From IMG/VR virus record IMGVR_UViG_3300045988_103705: a stretch of 17,566 nucleotides of DNA. One strand, written 5' to 3'. A model generated the notes under the pieces. That model did not search any database, had not been told where the DNA came from, and saw only the letters and a program-made list of their open reading frames with translations. Below are positions 4,089 to 15,444 of the stretch, piece after piece (positions within the stretch are counted from its first letter, which is position 1; each line of letters begins with the position of its first letter). The position numbers were made by a program, and so were the translations under genes. This DNA is from a virus.

Positions 4089-4711
4089 TCAAGAGCAATA
4101 TCATCAAAGATTACAGGGATTTTTTCCTTGACTTTATTAAGTGCAATAATTGCTACTTCTCTTATTTGCGGATGGGCGGCTGAAGAGCAGCGAAGCTTGA
4201 AGAAATGCCGCCACTCCCGCAAATTCGCAGTCATAACTACCTCTGTTTTTAAACTATTAGGTAGAACTGCTCTTGCTTCCTAAGGAGTGCATCCGGCAGA
4301 GAGCATATTAAAATATTCTTCTTCCGCATTTTGACAAGCATTATACCAATGATTGTAGGCTGGACTGCTCTTGATTAAGAAACAAGGTTCAATAACAGTA
4401 ATTTCATTTCCGAACCCGTCTTTTGAATAATTGCAATATCTTGTAGATTCTTGACAATAGGCAGCCAATCTATGACGAACAATTTCATGGCTAACACCTC
4501 TATCGCAAATAAATTTAAGAGTAAAAGAGCAATGCTCGAGGACTGCTTCATGTCCTCTTTTAATAATATTCTAAACAAATTTTACAGCACTATCTTCTGT
4601 AATCTTATCTTCAGATTTATAACAAACTCTACCGCACTGTTCAATTCGTTTAAGAATTATCTTACCGTCAATAGGTGTAATCAGTTCAACATCTGGCTTA
4701 ATAATTTTCAT
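4085..4711 (-). CDS. thyX: Flavin-dependent thymidylate synthase ThyX with two in-frame TAG codons (4571-4573 and 4280-4282). Stop is TGA.
   Basis: One frame gives MKIIKPDVELITP...KFV[TAG]NIIKRGHEAVLEHCSFTLKF...HEIVRHRLAAYCQESTRY (the RHR-x7-S-x-R ThyX motif) ...SAGCTP[TAG]EARAVLPNSLKTEVVMTANLREWRHFFKLRCSSAAHPQIREVA. The ORF-track pieces 4375..4578 and 4280..4468 are fragments of this gene. RBS AGGAATAAT upstream. Confidence 0.85.
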
Positions 4712-4988: not shown

Positions 4989-5892
4989 TAAGACCCTCCG
5001 CGAGTGGTATTTAAACCAAAATCTTTCGTTTTATAAAACTCAATCCAATAAGTTTCTCTCTCATTTAAATTTTCCCTTGAAACTTCTTCTAAAATCTCAA
5101 AGGTAAAACTCCAGATTTCTACATGGTAGAATATAGTTTATTGGTTGCTTTTCCGTAAGTTAAAGCAGATTTAATATGTTGTCTAAAACGTTCTTTTATA
5201 TCAACTGACTATCCTATATAGGATTTCCCAGTGGTCAAATCAGTTATCCTATAAATTCCACAATATTTAATTGCTTTTGGGAATAACCGAGCTGTTAATA
5301 TATCATAAGCTGGTTTATAATACACTTCCCATATTAACTTATCTATGCTTTCTTTTTTGACAAATCTAGGTTGCAACTCACGCAATAATGTAATATCATT
5401 TATATCAATTTCATCAAGAGCTAAACGATAGTAATCTTGATTAGAGTCAATCTCTTCCTATCTTTGTTGAGCCTAAATATAAGCAAGTTGTTTAGCTTGT
5501 AAATCCGCTAATTTACTGGATTCGATAGAAATTTTATTTGATAAATCTTGACTTTTAGCATTAAAAGTCATAGTAAGCTCATTTTCTTTTTCTTCATAGG
5601 ATTTTAAAAGCGCGGAAATGCGAATCTAGTATGCCTCATCAGCTTGCTTTTGTGCATTTTCCCGCATTTCTTCCTAAGATTTTACTAGAGAAGAAAGAAT
5701 TTCATTTTCAGAGTATATATTTTCTTTTATATTAGATAATACTTCTCTATTATGTTTTATTTCCTATTCTATCTCTGAGTTTTTCCTCTAATTATTTATA
5801 TTAACTTCAATTATTTGATGCTCTTGTTTCTTGAGATAATAGATATAAATTATTAACCCGATTATAGTAATTAATAATAACCCTATAATCAT
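4988..5892 (-). CDS. Membrane-anchored coiled-coil protein with a C-terminal GIY-YIG nuclease domain. Eight in-frame TAG codons plus an apparent 1-nt deletion near 5105-5108, so it may be a frameshifted pseudogene or carry a sequencing error.
   Basis: ATG at 5890-5892. Protein is MIIGLLLITIIGLIIYIYYL (TM helix), then an EKQ-rich coiled coil containing TAGs, then CGIYRITDLTTGKSYIG[TAG]SVDIKERFRQHIK...NKLYSTM[TAG]KSGV, and after a frame change FTFEILEEVSRENLNERETYWIEFYKTKDFGLNTTRGGS. The span is 905 nt, not a multiple of 3. Confidence 0.55.
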
Positions 5893-12744: not shown

Positions 12745-12757
12745 ACTACAAACAAAT

Positions 12758-12793
12758 AAAGGCTTAATGAGTATTTAACTCATTAAGCCTTTA
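12758..12793 (-). terminator. Intrinsic terminator (15-bp perfect stem aaaggcttaatgagt / actcattaagccttt) ending the lysis cassette.
   Basis: Perfect inverted repeat, followed on the minus strand by ATTTGTTTGTAGTTTGATTTTT. Confidence 0.7.
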
Positions 12794-12795
12794 TA

Positions 12796-13131
12796 TTAAA
12801 TAGGACCATCGAGATCAATGGGAATATCATTAGAGGCTGAAAAATCTTCTGCGGGGATGTTATATGCAGAATTGAATTCAGTTTCTTTTAAAGCTAGGTC
12901 ATAAGTAATGCCGCCCTTTTTGTGATCTGATTTAGCCATTGCTAAATAAAAAGAACAAACTACTCCGTGGGCGCTCCATGGTAGACCAACAAGAGCACTA
13001 ATCCATGGAAGGGTTCCTAAATATCCCATATAAACACACATAAATGCCAAAAGGATACCTGACACAGTCACGACCCATAATAACATACGAATATCATTTA
13101 TAAGTTTTTTGGAAAATTCTAATTTTTTCAT
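12796..13131 (-). CDS. Holin-like protein: two TM segments, charged C-terminus, ATGA overlap with the endolysin stop.
   Basis: 111 aa. Hydrophobic helices LLWVVTVSGILLAFMCVYMGYL and ISALVGLPWSAHGVVCSFYLAMA. Lies immediately downstream of the endolysin. Confidence 0.5.
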   Translation of the reverse strand: MKKLEFSKKLINDIRMLLWVVTVSGILLAFMCVYMGYLGTLPWISALVGLPWSAHGVVCSFYLAMAKSDHKKGGITYDLALKETEFNSAYNIPAEDFSASNDIPIDLDGPI

Positions 13132-14537
13132 TTTAAACCCAGCTTTTCAGCCAATCTTCTTAACATAGTTACAGTTTCTAATCTAGTGCAGAATTTATTT
13201 GGCATCATTCTTCCAGCACTGTCTCCAGCCATAATCCCATTTGCTTTAGCCCATTCAAGATTATCGGTGCCCCAAGTTTCTTTTTCATTAGCTTTATTAG
13301 TAAGCCAAGTATTCATAAGTTCAGCGAATTTCTCGTCAGTCATATCTTCATCATCCTCCTAGATATTTGACATTAAATTATAAACATCTGTTCTTGCGGT
13401 TTCCATGCTTTTTCCAAATTTTGGAAACCAATGGTTTACATCTGCATGATTAGATCCTAACCCTAACTTGTGACTATCAGCATGACATAAAATAGTTGGA
13501 ACGGTGATACCATTTAAAGTAGTGGTTCCCAATGGATTTATGTTATACATTTTACATAAATAAGCAGTAATTTGACAAGCCTCTTCATAAATTTTGTTAA
13601 AATAATTTGCATCATTTAATCCATCTTCGCAAATTTCAAACTGAATCCATCCATTATTACAAGAACCTTTAGACCCAGAACCGCATCCCCAAGGACGATA
13701 ATTCCATGGCATCGTCTATACTGTTGTTACCGTTCCATCAGCTAATTTACCAATCCAACAGTTTAATCCAGCTTGAATAGATATATGATTCCAGTCATTC
13801 TTGCTAGTATTTTTTCCTAATTTATTTATTAAACTGGTATAGTTAGGATCATTATCGCTTGGCTGTACGTATCTTTTTAAATTAGGATTATTTGCACCAG
13901 TACTATGCCATAAGATTCCTTTGACTTGCATGGTGCGTGTTTGTTTATAGCAAGTGCTATTTGTCATCATACATTGAAGTGGTTTATTGCTATCGCTATA
14001 TTTCATTTTATTACCTCCTTCAATTACATTTGAAATGTTAGCAAATTTATTATAATACTATTGACCATAATTAGCCCTCTTTTGTTGCATAGAAAAACTC
14101 TAGTCTGAAGGTCGTTCAAACTAGAGTAATACCGCGGTAGAAGCTTCTGTGACAGAAGTAGCAGAAATCAAAATTTTAACTAAACTAGAAAAACTTGTAA
14201 TTAATTCCTAATATAAAAAATCTAATTGAGTATTTAAATCTCCAATGGATTTACCTCGACTTTGACAGAACTAAAGCAAATTTTGTTTTCTGCTCCAAAA
14301 TGTCCATTGAGCCAATCCATACCCCGCTCCATCTTTTACAAAGTTTTTGTATCTTCCGTCATCAACTGCGGAAGTATATTCTGTATCGGTCATTTTTAAT
14401 TTTTTTTCATATGTGTTCTATAAGTTAATAGAATTAAGTTCACTCTCGGCATAAAGATTGCCCATTAAACCGGCAATTCCGCAATCACTAAAACCTTTGC
14501 CTTTAAAGTATTTCCAAATAACTTGGGCATTAGTCAT
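13128..14537 (-). CDS. Modular endolysin: phage-tail-lysozyme-like domain (GIAGLMGNLYAESELN...QLDFLY...FERP), Amidase_2/PGRP N-acetylmuramoyl-L-alanine amidase, and SLH cell-wall-binding domain. Contains 8 in-frame TAG codons.
   Basis: A single frame runs from ATG 14535-14537 to TGA 13128-13130. Its only interruptions are TAGs at 14418-14420, 14271-14273, 14208-14210, 14121-14123, 14100-14102, 14058-14060, 13716-13718 and 13359-13361. ORF-track fragments 13716..14006, 13359..13712 and 13128..13343 are in-frame pieces of it. Amidase motifs are ILWHSTGANNP and NNGWIQFEICED; SLH motif is WAKANGIMAGDSAGRMMPNKFCTRLETVTMLRRL. An internal SD GAAGGAGGT lies 7 nt before the ATG at 14004-14006. Confidence 0.8.
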
Positions 14538-14539
14538 TT

Positions 14540-15394
14540 TTATTTTTTTGTAATGAAAGAGCTATATCCAGCGGATTTTAATTTATCTTTTAGTCTTTCT
14601 GCATTTAATTTCACAGAGAAAGCGCCTAATTGAACTTTATAAAAAACTCCTACTTTCTTGACATATCCGCTAAATCCTTTCTCTTCCAATTCCTTTAACA
14701 TATTCTCTGCATTGGTTTTAGATAGAAATGCTCCTACTTGAACTCTGTAAAGAACTACCTCTTGTTCTTTCTTAAAATATACACACATTACATTATCAAC
14801 TGGTCTTGCATAAATTTGAGAAGTTTTTCTTTTCCCATCTATTAGTAATCTAGTAGATCCGCCTCCATCTAAATTAATAGCATATTCTACTTTCAATTCA
14901 AGAAAAATTTGCTATAGGGCAGCATAAGCAAGACCTGGAGAATCTACGGTTACAATATAATAATTATTTTTATTCCATCCAATACAAGTCCTGCGGGCTT
15001 TATGATCTAATTCTTTTCCATCTGTTATAACTATCTTTTTGCTATCTACAATTAATGCAGGATAAGCTGCAATAAAATCTCTGGCGGTTTGTAATCTTTT
15101 TAATGTTGTATATATAAGTGTTTTATTGCCGCTAATTGCAACCCCATGGCGAAAATCAGACTAAATAACAGTTCCTTCGTCTTTATAACTAAAGCAGGTA
15201 TTGCCATTGTTCATAGCAAAGAACCCTCCATTAGTAACAATATCTGGTTTAGTAGTCTGTCTTTTATAATAAACATCTGGAGTTTCCGTCGGTTGATTAC
15301 ATAAGGCAAAGTCAATTTTTTCAATGTCTACGAAGGGAATTGTTACAATTTGAACATAAGAATAGAGACTATGTTTTTTAATGCTATATCCCAT
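14540..15394 (-). CDS. NAGPA (phosphodiester glycosidase-like) domain protein with two C-terminal SPOR domains. Interrupted by in-frame TAGs at 15161-15163 and 14912-14914 and an in-frame TGA at 14897-14899.
   Basis: ORFs 15161..15394 (..NGGFF..) and 14540..14896 (AINLDGGGST..., then two SPOR repeats YRVQVGAF.. and YKVQLGAF..) share one frame. The intervening frame encodes ..IVTVDSPGLAYAAL[TAG]QIFL[TGA]LKVEYAINLDGGGS, which fits the conserved NAGPA domain core without gaps. RBS AAAGGAGATAAAGT upstream. Confidence 0.6.
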
Positions 15395-15416: not shown

Positions 15417-15444
15417 AAACCCAATCTCTTTAGAGATTGGGTTT
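15417..15444 (-). terminator. Intrinsic terminator (13-bp perfect stem aaacccaatctct / gagattgggttt) between phoH and the lysis genes. No promoter follows it.
   Basis: Perfect inverted repeat followed on the minus strand by TTTTATTATTG, then directly the RBS and ATG of the NAGPA gene. Confidence 0.65.

What the first reader, a model, noticed from the sequence alone, without database searches (positions are those of the whole stretch)
13128..14537. Three-domain endolysin (lysozyme-like, Amidase_2, SLH) encoded through 8 amber codons
The lysis enzyme exists as a single polypeptide only if eight TAGs are decoded. Six lie in the N-terminal lysozyme-like domain and one at each domain junction (amidase start 13716-13718, amidase-SLH linker 13359-13361). 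Under standard decoding only a roughly 39-aa N-terminal peptide would be made. This is the kind of arrangement proposed for recoded phages, in which accumulation of suppressor tRNA late in infection licenses lysis. Here the dependency is extreme, at 8 TAGs in 470 codons.
Basis: partly seen in the sequence, partly recalled or inferred. Interest (0 to 1): 0.8.

Follow-up and report, generated by a model that had tools for sequence, protein, structure and literature searches.

The report
Amber-recoded phage endolysin gene
A gut-phage gene for a cell-wall-cutting enzyme carries eight TAG "stop" codons that the phage reads as glutamine, probably with its own suppressor tRNA; this genetic-code trick is real but already described, and here it comes with two conserved internal start sites.

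Summary
Window 14537..13128 (minus strand) is one 469-codon frame with eight in-frame TAGs at the stated coordinates and no TAA or TGA before the final TGA.

TAG means glutamine here:
- 47 TAG-free homologues are single uninterrupted ORFs with the same domain order.
- They carry CAA/CAG at the two conserved TAG sites (45/47 and 47/47).
- Codons after the first TAG are under strong purifying selection (dN/dS 0.03-0.11).
- A genome of the same phage species (about 98% nt identity) encodes a tRNA with anticodon CUA about 24 kb upstream.

- TAG274 lies inside the amidase domain, not at its start.
- The SLH call is just below the Pfam threshold.
- Eight TAGs is not extreme, since close relatives have 9-11.
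- The N-terminal clustering follows glutamine content.
- Two conserved Shine-Dalgarno + ATG sites (M178, M399) sit exactly at the domain linkers. Shorter isoforms are therefore likely, and the SLH-only one needs no TAG decoding.

"Suppressor tRNA licenses lysis" is the published Borges et al. hypothesis. It remains plausible here but untested, and ThyX and a DnaB-like gene also contain TAG. Verdict: a solid new member of a known kind, of moderate interest.

The parts
13128..14537 (-). Endolysin ORF: 469 codons plus TGA, 8 in-frame TAG read as Gln
14418..14420 (-). TAG codon 40. The site is conserved Gln; TAG-free homologues have CAG/CAA in 45/47
14271..14273 (-). TAG codon 89 (variable site; TAG in 22 recoded homologues)
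14208..14210 (-). TAG codon 110 (Gln or Lys in homologues)
14121..14123 (-). TAG codon 139 (Gln or Asn in homologues); lies in the 5' arm of the internal hairpin
14100..14102 (-). TAG codon 146 (CAA/CAG in 30/47 TAG-free homologues); lies in the 3' arm of the internal hairpin
14058..14060 (-). TAG codon 160, at the end of the lysozyme domain (variable site; TAG only in this clade)
13716..13718 (-). TAG codon 274, inside the Amidase_2 domain. The site is invariant Gln; CAA/CAG in 47/47 TAG-free homologues
13359..13361 (-). TAG codon 393 in the amidase-SLH linker. Its AG forms the first two bases of the AGGAGG before M399
14043..14531 (-). Phage_lysozyme2 domain (residues 3-165)
13479..13934 (-). 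Amidase_2 domain (residues 202-353)
13176..13274 (-). Single SLH-like motif (residues 422-454). Sub-threshold in this protein; matches 16/35 family members at E <= 0.01 (best 5.3e-7)
14004..14020 (-). Internal start 1: AAGGAGG, 7 nt, then ATG (M178), at the end of the lysozyme-amidase linker
   Evidence: Start codon + SD >= 5/6 in 80/82 homologues although the linker peptide varies (31 distinct peptides). It is the native gene start of stand-alone amidase genes
13341..13360 (-). Internal start 2: AGGAGG, 11 nt, then ATG (M399), at the end of the amidase-SLH linker
   Evidence: Start codon + SD >= 5/6 in 66/80 homologues, that is all those sharing this C-terminal domain; two have GTG
14540..15394 (-). 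Upstream cassette gene: NAGPA (phosphodiester glycosidase) + SPOR, with 2 TAG (15161-15163, 14912-14914). Its TAA lies 2 nt before the endolysin ATG
12796..13131 (-). Downstream 111-aa membrane protein (holin candidate, unverified). It has no TAG and no Gln codon. Its ATG overlaps the endolysin TGA (ATGA)
15417..15444 (-). Terminator-like hairpin between the PhoH gene and the cassette
12756..12794 (-). Terminator-like hairpin (17 pairs) just after the membrane-protein gene

Best explanation
Shown:
- The ORF is a normal, selected gene of an uncultured, roughly 147-kb, AT-rich phage that writes part of its glutamine codons as TAG (genetic code 15).
- Its hosts are most likely Clostridia. Relatives of the endolysin sit in Oscillospiraceae, Acutalibacteraceae and Lachnospiraceae genomes.
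- Reading TAG as Gln yields a 469-aa endolysin: a phi29-gp13-type lysozyme domain, a PGRP/T7-type N-acetylmuramoyl-L-alanine amidase, and one SLH-like wall-binding motif.
- A genome of the same species encodes a tRNA with anticodon CUA.

Inferred with good support:
- That tRNA is charged with Gln (or with Glu that is then converted to Gln) by host enzymes and competes with host RF1 at TAG.
- Two conserved internal ribosome-binding sites give nested isoforms: amidase-SLH from M178 (2 TAGs to pass) and SLH alone from M399 (0 TAGs).

Inferred only:
- If each TAG is read through with efficiency e, full-length yield scales as e^8, against e^2 for the M178 isoform. The complete two-enzyme lysin would then appear only when suppressor activity is high. 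This is the lysis-gating idea proposed for recoded phages.
- The gene start has no SD and sits 2 nt after the stop of the upstream NAGPA-SPOR gene, which itself has 2 TAGs. Full-length initiation may therefore also depend on read-through upstream.
For: TAG means Gln:
- 47 of 81 IMG/VR homologues have no TAG and are single ORFs.
- At window TAG sites 40 and 274 these homologues have CAG/CAA in 45/47 and 47/47; at site 146 in 30/47.

The gene is translated past the TAGs:
- dN/dS against the 93%-identical L006 is 0.11 for codons 41-177, 0.03 for the amidase part and 0.03 for the SLH part.
- All eight stops are TAG.

Suppressor tRNA:
- tRNA-CUA lies at L099:5088-5163. L099 comes from contig IMGVR_UViG_3300045988_084596, which also holds the 97%-identical endolysin about 24 kb downstream on the same strand.
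- It is present in 6/6 relatives.
- The window is 97.8-98.7% identical at nucleotide level to these genomes.
- The tRNA has an unpaired 1:72 position, G73 and an encoded CCA.

Gene-specific TAG use:
- The endolysin has 8 TAG in 23 Gln positions, against 0 of 37 in gyrA plus gyrB and 0 in the ligase and PhoH genes. Fisher p = 0.004 against all other genes.
- The upstream metabolic block in L001 has no TAG.

Internal starts:
- Only two alignment columns combine a start codon with an SD match of at least 5/6: M178 (80/82) and M399 (66/80). The background is 3.6% of codons.
- These are the only perfect AGGAGG+ATG sites in the window. No annotated gene start there has a 6/6 match.
- Before M178, 30 of 32 distinct upstream 21-mers keep the SD, although they encode 31 different peptides.
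- In 57/76 bacterial-genome loci the amidase is a separate gene starting at that ATG, GTG or TTG.
- The low-pLDDT linkers end exactly at these Met residues.

Precedents: lysis genes preferentially recoded (bioRxiv 10.1101/2021.08.26.457843); in-frame internal starts predicted in about half of the endolysins surveyed and confirmed in several (PMC9430671, PMC4777826, PMC12203907).
Against: - No tRNA lies in the window itself. The suppressor is shown only in same-species genomes.
- The tRNA's amino-acid identity is inferred from alignments, not from the tRNA.
- Timing is untestable here. ThyX (2 TAGs inside the Thy1 domain) and a DnaB-like gene (1 TAG) also need TAG decoding, so suppression cannot be strictly late unless those genes are late too.
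- The TAG fraction of the endolysin (35%) is no higher than in other TAG-using genes: 21-45% in three unannotated repeat proteins, 40% in an HNH nuclease and 41% in the GIY-YIG ORF.
- TAG positions shared with the 65%-identical recoded clade (sites 40 and 89) are not more than chance (p = 0.14).
- The SD before M399 is encoded by a conserved acidic linker (EEDDED), so its conservation could be at protein level.
- Ribosomes starting at M399 would reach the ATGA overlap without meeting any TAG. The downstream membrane protein may therefore not be gated.
Confidence: 0.75

Rival explanations
1. TAG is simply a third glutamine codon in a fully reassigned code. Its distribution among genes reflects mutation bias, gene age or horizontal origin, not regulation of lysis. 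The decoding is as in the best explanation; only the regulatory meaning differs.
For: - TAG also occurs in ThyX and the DnaB-like gene.
- The endolysin's TAG fraction is similar to that of other TAG-using genes.
- TAG sites are not conserved beyond chance between recoded clades.
- The N-terminal clustering is explained by Gln content.
- TAG number drifts between close relatives: 8, 9, 10 and 11.
Against: - The distribution is very uneven: 0 TAG in 37 Gln codons of gyrA/gyrB and none in about 10 upstream metabolic genes, against 35-45% in lysis, nuclease and repeat-protein genes.
- The same bias toward lysis genes is reported in two unrelated recoded lineages (bioRxiv 10.1101/2021.08.26.457843).
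- TAG fraction falls along the gene (lysozyme, then amidase, then SLH) in four lineages pooled: 14/51 against 4/47, p = 0.02. The lineages are not fully independent.
Confidence: 0.3
2. There are three separate cistrons in one frame: lysozyme ending at TAG160, amidase from M178 to TAG393, and SLH from M399. TAG would act as the terminator at the junctions.
For: - Strong SD+ATG sites follow both junction TAGs.
- The amidase module is a stand-alone gene starting at the M178 equivalent in most prophage loci.
Against: - Six further TAGs lie inside the two catalytic domains, so TAG must be decoded anyway.
- 47 TAG-free relatives have no stop of any kind between the domains.
- TAG160 and TAG393 exist only in the narrow clade and sit at variable positions.
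- The Pfam lysozyme match runs through codon 160 to residue 165.
Confidence: 0.05
3. The gene is a decaying pseudogene or an assembly artefact, with nonsense mutations accumulating in a dead endolysin.
For: There are eight stops under the standard code.
Against: - All eight are TAG, and there is no TAA or TGA in 469 codons (P about 3e-6 and 1.6e-15).
- dN/dS is 0.03-0.11 downstream of the TAGs.
- The TAGs align to Gln.
- The same TAGs are present in independent assemblies from several samples.
Confidence: 0.01
4. The host itself reads TAG as Gln, or has a strong natural amber suppressor, so the phage gene is merely adapted to its host's code.
For: None found. The window has no tRNA.
Against: - The phage species carries its own tRNA-CUA.
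- Many of the phage's genes avoid TAG entirely.
- Homologous endolysins in Oscillospiraceae and Lachnospiraceae genomes are mostly bounded by ordinary stops and are TAG-free.
- Published recoded phages infect standard-code hosts (bioRxiv 10.1101/2021.08.26.457843).
Confidence: 0.03

Closest known systems
Stop-codon-recoded (TAG to Gln, code 15) gut phages with preferentially recoded lysis genes (Borges et al., bioRxiv 10.1101/2021.08.26.457843; proteomic validation in crAss-like phages, PMC9523058)
   Same: - In-frame TAG at Gln positions.
- A phage-encoded tRNA-CUA.
- TAG absent from many replication and metabolic genes and frequent in lysis genes.
- An AT-rich genome.
- An amidase-type lysin among the most recoded genes.
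   Different: - A different phage lineage: about 147 kb, a Bacillota-type lysis cassette and no spanin.
- The cassette sits between PhoH and the RNase H/gyrase genes rather than in a structural block.
- Some nucleotide-metabolism and replication genes (ThyX, DnaB-like) also carry TAG.
- The endolysin has two conserved internal start sites. The papers I read do not discuss these in connection with recoding.
phAss-1 / proposed Phassvirus group: TAG-recoded phages of about 136 kb, with predicted Clostridia hosts and tRNA-Sup-CTA genes (PMC10607447)
   Same: - Large uncultured gut phages of Clostridia.
- Code 15 and suppressor tRNA genes.
- TAG in structural and some DNA-processing genes, and in the holin of some members.
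   Different: - No close sequence relative in the GenBank phage collection. The best endolysin, GyrA and PhoH protein matches are all below 60% identity, and blastn of the gene found nothing.
- The same-species genome region I examined holds four tRNA genes and one CUA tRNA, against 36 tRNAs and three suppressors in phAss-1.
Endolysin genes with in-frame internal translation start sites: Lys170/LysIME-EF1, CTP1L/CD27L, phi2638A (PMC9430671, PMC4777826, PMC12203907, PMC7098653)
   Same: - SD + start codon in the linker before the wall-binding domain, and (as in phi2638A) between two catalytic domains.
- The site is conserved at the same relative position across the family, which is the criterion used in PMC9430671.
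   Different: - There are two nested sites rather than one.
- No protein evidence exists here.
- The isoforms differ in how many TAG codons must be decoded (8, 2 and 0).
Solved domain relatives: phi29 gp13 lysozyme domain (3csr/3csq); PlyL, PlyG and AmiA/AmiE amidases (1yb0, 2l47, 4knk, 3lat)
   Same: Fold and profile similarity of the two catalytic domains.
   Different: - Sequence identity is low (14-22%).
- In those proteins the domains occur in other combinations.

Membership tests
Code-15 (TAG to Gln) recoded phage gene | In-frame TAGs in an otherwise open, homology-supported reading frame | tested here: met
   8 TAG and no TAA/TGA in 469 codons; the Pfam matches run across the TAGs
Code-15 (TAG to Gln) recoded phage gene | TAG positions align with glutamine codons in relatives that do not use TAG | tested here: met
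   Sites 40 and 274 have CAA/CAG in 45/47 and 47/47 TAG-free homologues; site 146 in 30/47
Code-15 (TAG to Gln) recoded phage gene | Sequence downstream of the TAGs is under purifying selection, so it is translated | tested here: met
   dN/dS 0.03-0.11 by segment against L006 and L075
Code-15 (TAG to Gln) recoded phage gene | Phage-encoded suppressor tRNA with anticodon CUA | tested here: met
   Absent from the window. Present in 6/6 relatives, including a same-species genome, about 24 kb upstream of the endolysin
Code-15 (TAG to Gln) recoded phage gene | TAG is not used as a terminator by the phage's genes | tested here: inconclusive
   All 19 complete genes can be closed by TAA (14) or TGA (5). 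However, my ORF definition and the code-15 gene calls exclude TAG stops by construction
Code-15 (TAG to Gln) recoded phage gene | Peptides with Gln at TAG positions detected | not testable with these tools
   Needs proteomics
Recoding as a lysis-timing gate (Borges et al. hypothesis) | Lysis genes are enriched in the recoded stop relative to the synonymous standard codons | tested here: inconclusive
   Enriched against all other window genes (p = 0.004), but not against other TAG-using genes (21-45%). ThyX and the DnaB-like gene also have TAG
Recoding as a lysis-timing gate (Borges et al. hypothesis) | Suppressor activity rises late in infection, and premature translation of the lysin is blocked | not testable with these tools
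   Needs time-resolved tRNA, ribosome and protein data
Modular Gram-positive-type endolysin (catalytic domains + wall-binding domain, next to a holin) | Peptidoglycan hydrolase domain(s) | tested here: met
   Phage_lysozyme2 E 2e-34 and Amidase_2 E 2e-11; PHROG endolysin families; fold matches
Modular Gram-positive-type endolysin (catalytic domains + wall-binding domain, next to a holin) | [quoted passage not shown] | tested here: inconclusive
   SLH scores 19.7 bits against a cut-off of 20.8 in this protein; it matches 16/35 family members at E <= 0.01, best 5.3e-7. Foldseek gave no SLH match, and this part of the model has pLDDT of about 45-80
Modular Gram-positive-type endolysin (catalytic domains + wall-binding domain, next to a holin) | Adjacent holin | tested here: inconclusive
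   The 111-aa protein overlapping the stop codon has one clear hydrophobic span and possibly a second, an acidic C-terminus, and no Pfam or PHROG holin match
Endolysin genes with in-frame internal translation start sites | In-frame start codon preceded by an SD in an inter-domain linker, at the same relative position in most family members | tested here: met
   M178 in 80/82 and M399 in 66/80 homologues, against a background of 3.6%. The linkers are located by pLDDT
Endolysin genes with in-frame internal translation start sites | Shorter polypeptide(s) actually produced and associating with the full-length enzyme | not testable with these tools
   Needs expression or Western blotting, N-terminal proteomics or start-site profiling

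The most novel reading that the evidence does not exclude
The gene encodes a suppressor-titrated isoform series.
- Conserved internal starts would make the SLH-only module without any TAG decoding.
- The amidase-SLH enzyme needs two read-throughs.
- The full lysozyme-amidase-SLH enzyme needs eight. It may need ten, counting translational coupling to the upstream 2-TAG gene.

Rising tRNA-CUA activity would then change not just the amount but the composition of the lysin. For example, free single-SLH modules made early could later assemble with catalytic chains into a three-SLH wall-binding unit. This would link genetic-code switching to the stoichiometry of a multimeric endolysin, a link not described in the papers read here.
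Probability: 0.15. Interest if true: 0.65.

Novelty: new member of a known kind. Interest (0 to 1): 0.35.

Why it matters
It is a clean, well-supported example of code-15 recoding in a lysis gene of a Clostridia-type phage lineage that has no close relative in GenBank phage records.

The comparative material is unusually good:
- TAG-free single-ORF homologues;
- same-species genomes that carry the suppressor tRNA;
- relatives with 2 to 11 TAGs in the same gene.

That makes it a convenient test case for the open question of whether stop-codon recoding times lysis.

In practice, standard-code annotation would split this gene into fragments. The conserved internal starts suggest that expressing it for enzybiotic work will give several products.

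Tried and rejected
- An exact-match search for the gene in IMG/VR found nothing. blastn against GenBank phages found nothing. Protein searches with the endolysin, GyrA and PhoH found only matches below 60% identity, so no named relative could be given.
- tRNA scans of the window and of 35 endolysin-centred loci were empty. A first 10-kb walk upstream also found none in the close clade.
- Searching IMG/VR with the anticodon arm of a suppressor from a more distant clade returned only that clade. A second walk found the tRNA-CUA.
I used the 97-98%-identical database protein P0001 instead.
- Foldseek on the whole model did not recover an SLH fold.
- The idea that TAG positions are conserved by selection between recoded clades is not supported (p = 0.14).
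- The idea that TAGs are concentrated in the lysozyme domain of this gene is not significant once Gln content is counted (p = 0.40).
- The idea that the internal hairpin spanning TAG139 and TAG146 is a conserved read-through element fails. It is present only in the ~98%-nt-identity relatives (97% at protein level) and decays at 91% protein identity.
- The sigma-70 promoter scan was no better than shuffled sequence (31 found against 26.9 expected), so no promoter is claimed.
Full report
**1. The observation**

Translating window 14537..13128 on the minus strand gives a 469-residue frame that ends in TGA. Off-frame TAA+TGA density on this strand is 7% per codon. An open run of this length therefore has P about 1.6e-15, and eight of eight stops being TAG has P about 3e-6.

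Pfam places three domains:
- Phage_lysozyme2 at residues 3-165 (E 2e-34);
- Amidase_2 at 202-353 (E 2e-11);
- a single SLH motif at 422-454, just below the curated threshold (19.7 against 20.8 bits).

The SLH model matches 16 of 35 family members at E <= 0.01. An AlphaFold model of the 97-98%-identical database protein P0001 shows three folded blocks separated by low-confidence linkers at 168-176 and 392-399. Foldseek and a PDB profile search tie the N-terminal block to the phi29 gp13 lysozyme domain and the middle block to the PlyL, PlyG and AmiA/AmiE amidases.

Two details of the description are wrong. Codon 274 is inside the amidase domain, not at its start. The excess of TAGs in the N-terminal domain only mirrors its higher glutamine content (6 of 14 against 2 of 9, p = 0.40).

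**2. Surroundings**

All genes in the window run on the minus strand, and the content is that of a large phage. The genes are a PIN-PhoH protein, an NAGPA-SPOR protein, the endolysin, a 111-aa membrane protein, RNase H, GyrB, GyrA, a ligase, a GIY-YIG ORF, ThyX and a DnaB-like helicase.

TAG use is very uneven:

| Gene | TAG count |
|---|---|
| Endolysin | 8 of 23 Gln positions |
| Coiled-coil/GIY-YIG ORF | 9 |
| NAGPA-SPOR | 2 |
| ThyX | 2 |
| Three other genes | 1 each |
| gyrA, gyrB, ligase, PhoH and others | 0 |

The comparison of the endolysin with all other genes gives Fisher p = 0.004.

The three genes NAGPA-SPOR, endolysin and membrane protein are bracketed by terminator-like hairpins at 15444-15417 and 12794-12756. 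They are packed tightly. The endolysin ATG lies 2 nt after the upstream TAA and has no Shine-Dalgarno sequence. Its TGA overlaps the next ATG as ATGA.

**3. What TAG means**

The protein has thousands of database relatives. The best are full-length (443-490 aa) and sit on contigs of 145-150 kb. A 96%-identical copy lies on a 148,793-bp ENA scaffold. There the gene was called as one 469-aa protein, yet it does not translate to that protein under table 11, so the gene caller used an alternative code.

Among 81 IMG/VR loci, 47 homologues contain no TAG at all. They are uninterrupted ORFs with the same domain order. At the two window TAG sites that are conserved in the family, these TAG-free genes have CAG/CAA in 45/47 (site 40) and 47/47 (site 274). 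Site 146 has Gln in 30/47. The other sites are variable.

Codons downstream of the first TAG are under strong purifying selection. Against a 93%-identical relative, dN/dS is 0.11 for codons 41-177, 0.03 for the amidase and 0.03 for the SLH part. The pseudogene and artefact readings are therefore excluded, and TAG = Gln is established as firmly as sequence analysis allows.

**4. The suppressor tRNA**

The window has no tRNA, and neither do 35 endolysin-centred loci. I walked upstream in IMG/VR contigs of the same species. The window is 97.8-98.7% identical to them at nucleotide level over 14.4 kb.

This found a tRNA with anticodon CUA in a small cluster, Ser(UGA)-CUA-Leu(CAA)-Cys, in 6 of 6 relatives. 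One of these loci comes from contig IMGVR_UViG_3300045988_084596, which also carries the 97%-identical endolysin about 24 kb downstream on the same strand.

The tRNA has an unpaired 1:72 position, discriminator G73 and an encoded CCA. From my own knowledge, a weak first pair plus G73 resembles tRNA-Gln identity. I could not run an isotype classifier.

Next to the tRNA lie three unannotated repeat-rich proteins with 3, 5 and 3 TAGs, and an HNH-type homing endonuclease with 4. The metabolic block between the tRNA and the window is almost TAG-free: NAPRTase, NAD synthase, Thg1, RNA ligase and a Ro-like RNA-binding protein.

**5. Internal starts**

Reading the DNA shows GAAGGAGGTAATAAAATG before M178 and TAGGAGGATGATGAAGATATG before M399. 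These are the only perfect AGGAGG+ATG combinations in the window. No annotated gene start there scores 6/6.

Across 82 homologues, only two alignment columns combine a start codon with an SD match of at least 5/6. They are exactly these two: 80/82 for M178 and 66/80 for M399, against a 3.6% background.

- **M178.** Of 32 distinct upstream 21-mers, 30 keep the motif although they encode 31 different linker peptides. This argues for selection at the RNA level.
- **M399.** The motif is encoded by a conserved acidic linker, so the evidence is weaker. Two homologues do have GTG at the start position.

In bacterial genomes the amidase module is mostly a stand-alone gene that begins at the M178-equivalent ATG, GTG or TTG, with a stop a few codons upstream (57 of 76 loci). 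In about 14 loci the lysozyme domain lies downstream of the amidase instead. M178 is therefore the native start of the amidase module, kept after fusion.

In-frame internal starts are well documented in endolysins (PMC9430671, PMC4777826, PMC12203907). The likely products here are:
- full length, needing 8 TAGs decoded;
- amidase-SLH from M178, needing 2 TAGs;
- a 71-aa SLH-like module from M399, needing 0 TAGs.

**6. Mechanism and what is inferred**

Shown:
- a selected three-domain gene;
- TAG = Gln;
- a same-species suppressor tRNA;
- gene-specific TAG use;
- conserved internal SD + start sites.

Inferred:
- host enzymes charge the tRNA;
- the tRNA competes with RF1;
- full-length yield scales as the eighth power of per-codon read-through (0.4% at 50%, 43% at 90%), so it responds steeply to suppressor level.

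This is the lysis-gating hypothesis of Borges et al. (bioRxiv 10.1101/2021.08.26.457843). That study already reports preferential recoding of an amidase-type lysin and a spanin in crAss-like phages, of lysis-cassette genes in Agate phages, and of an intron homing endonuclease.

Several observations count against a strict late-only switch in this phage:
- ThyX and the DnaB-like gene need TAG decoding.
- The endolysin's TAG fraction is not higher than that of other TAG-using genes.
- TAG sites are not conserved beyond chance between recoded clades.
- Ribosomes starting at M399 reach the overlap with the membrane-protein gene without meeting a TAG.

A neutral "TAG is just another Gln codon in some gene classes" reading therefore keeps about 0.3.

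**7. Comparison and novelty**

This is a member of the known class of code-15 phage genes; four of the five defining features that could be tested were met (TAG never serving as a terminator was inconclusive), and peptide evidence could not be tested. The closest described systems are:
- the recoded lysis cassettes of crAss-like and Agate phages;
- the TAG-recoded ~136-kb phAss-1 group of Clostridia phages (PMC10607447);
- endolysins with internal starts, for the nested products.

No close relative is in the GenBank phage collection. Eight TAGs is not exceptional: same-clade relatives have 9-11, and a 239-kb phage homologue has 16 in 823 codons.

The only element I did not find described is the combination of recoding with nested internal starts. 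That combination would make isoform composition depend on suppressor level. It is a hypothesis with no direct support.

**8. Verdict**

- Observation: confirmed.
- Interpretation: partly supported. The recoding is supported. The junction placement, the "extreme" label and the "only 39 aa" claim are corrected. The lysis licensing is untested.
- Novelty: new member of a known kind.
- Interest: 0.35.

Noticed in passing
window 14097-14127 (-): A 13-bp hairpin inside the endolysin ORF. Each of its two arms contains a TAG codon (139 and 146), and it is followed by TTTTTC. Energy is -19 kcal/mol, z = -5.1. It is present only in the ~98%-nt-identity relatives (97% at protein level) and decays in the 91% relative, so it is probably not a conserved element.
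   Followed up: yes
window 5065-5892 (-); L099:6272-7174: Homing-endonuclease genes are among the most TAG-rich. The coiled-coil + GIY-YIG ORF has 9 TAGs (41% of Gln positions), and its GIY-YIG match covers only 34 of 78 profile positions, so it may be degenerate. The HNH-type nuclease next to the tRNA cluster has 4. This echoes the recoded intron endonuclease reported for Agate phages.
   Followed up: partly
window 4571-4573, 4280-4282 (ThyX) and 745-747 (DnaB-like): Nucleotide-metabolism and replication genes also contain in-frame TAG inside their conserved domains. Suppression is therefore needed for more than late functions.
   Followed up: partly
window 14535-14542 and 13128-13131: A translational-coupling chain. 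The NAGPA-SPOR TAA lies 2 nt before the SD-less endolysin ATG, and the endolysin TGA overlaps the ATG of the 111-aa membrane protein (ATGA). Read-through upstream could control initiation downstream.
   Followed up: no
window 14540-15394 (-): A second wall-related protein lies in the cassette. It combines a phosphodiester glycosidase (NAGPA) domain with a SPOR peptidoglycan-binding domain and has 2 TAGs. Its role in lysis is unknown; it might act on wall-linked polymers.
   Followed up: no
L089-L093 (IMG/VR contigs of 93-138 kb, NAPRTase 69-70% identical): A related clade carries a 24-25-gene tRNA array upstream of NAPRTase. A tRNA-CUA sits between tRNA-Glu(CUC) and tRNA-Cys in two contigs and is missing from the same slot in three others, so the suppressor is gained or lost over short distances.
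   Followed up: partly
L001:1-7000, L084:1-10000, L099:7211-8734 (same species, upstream of the window): A cluster of tRNA- and RNA-related and NAD genes: a YqeY (GatB-like) protein, Thg1, a KTI12/AAA_33 kinase, RNA ligase, a Ro/TROVE-like RNA-binding protein, NAPRTase and NAD synthase. The YqeY-like protein might bear on Gln-tRNA formation for the suppressor, but this is speculative.
   Followed up: no
L112, L114, L122, L123, L129, L130, L134, L137, L138, L142-L144, L146 (bacterial genome contigs): The same two catalytic modules occur in swapped order (amidase first, lysozyme second). The amidase also occurs alone in most prophage loci, showing free shuffling of these modules in Clostridia prophages.
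   Followed up: partly
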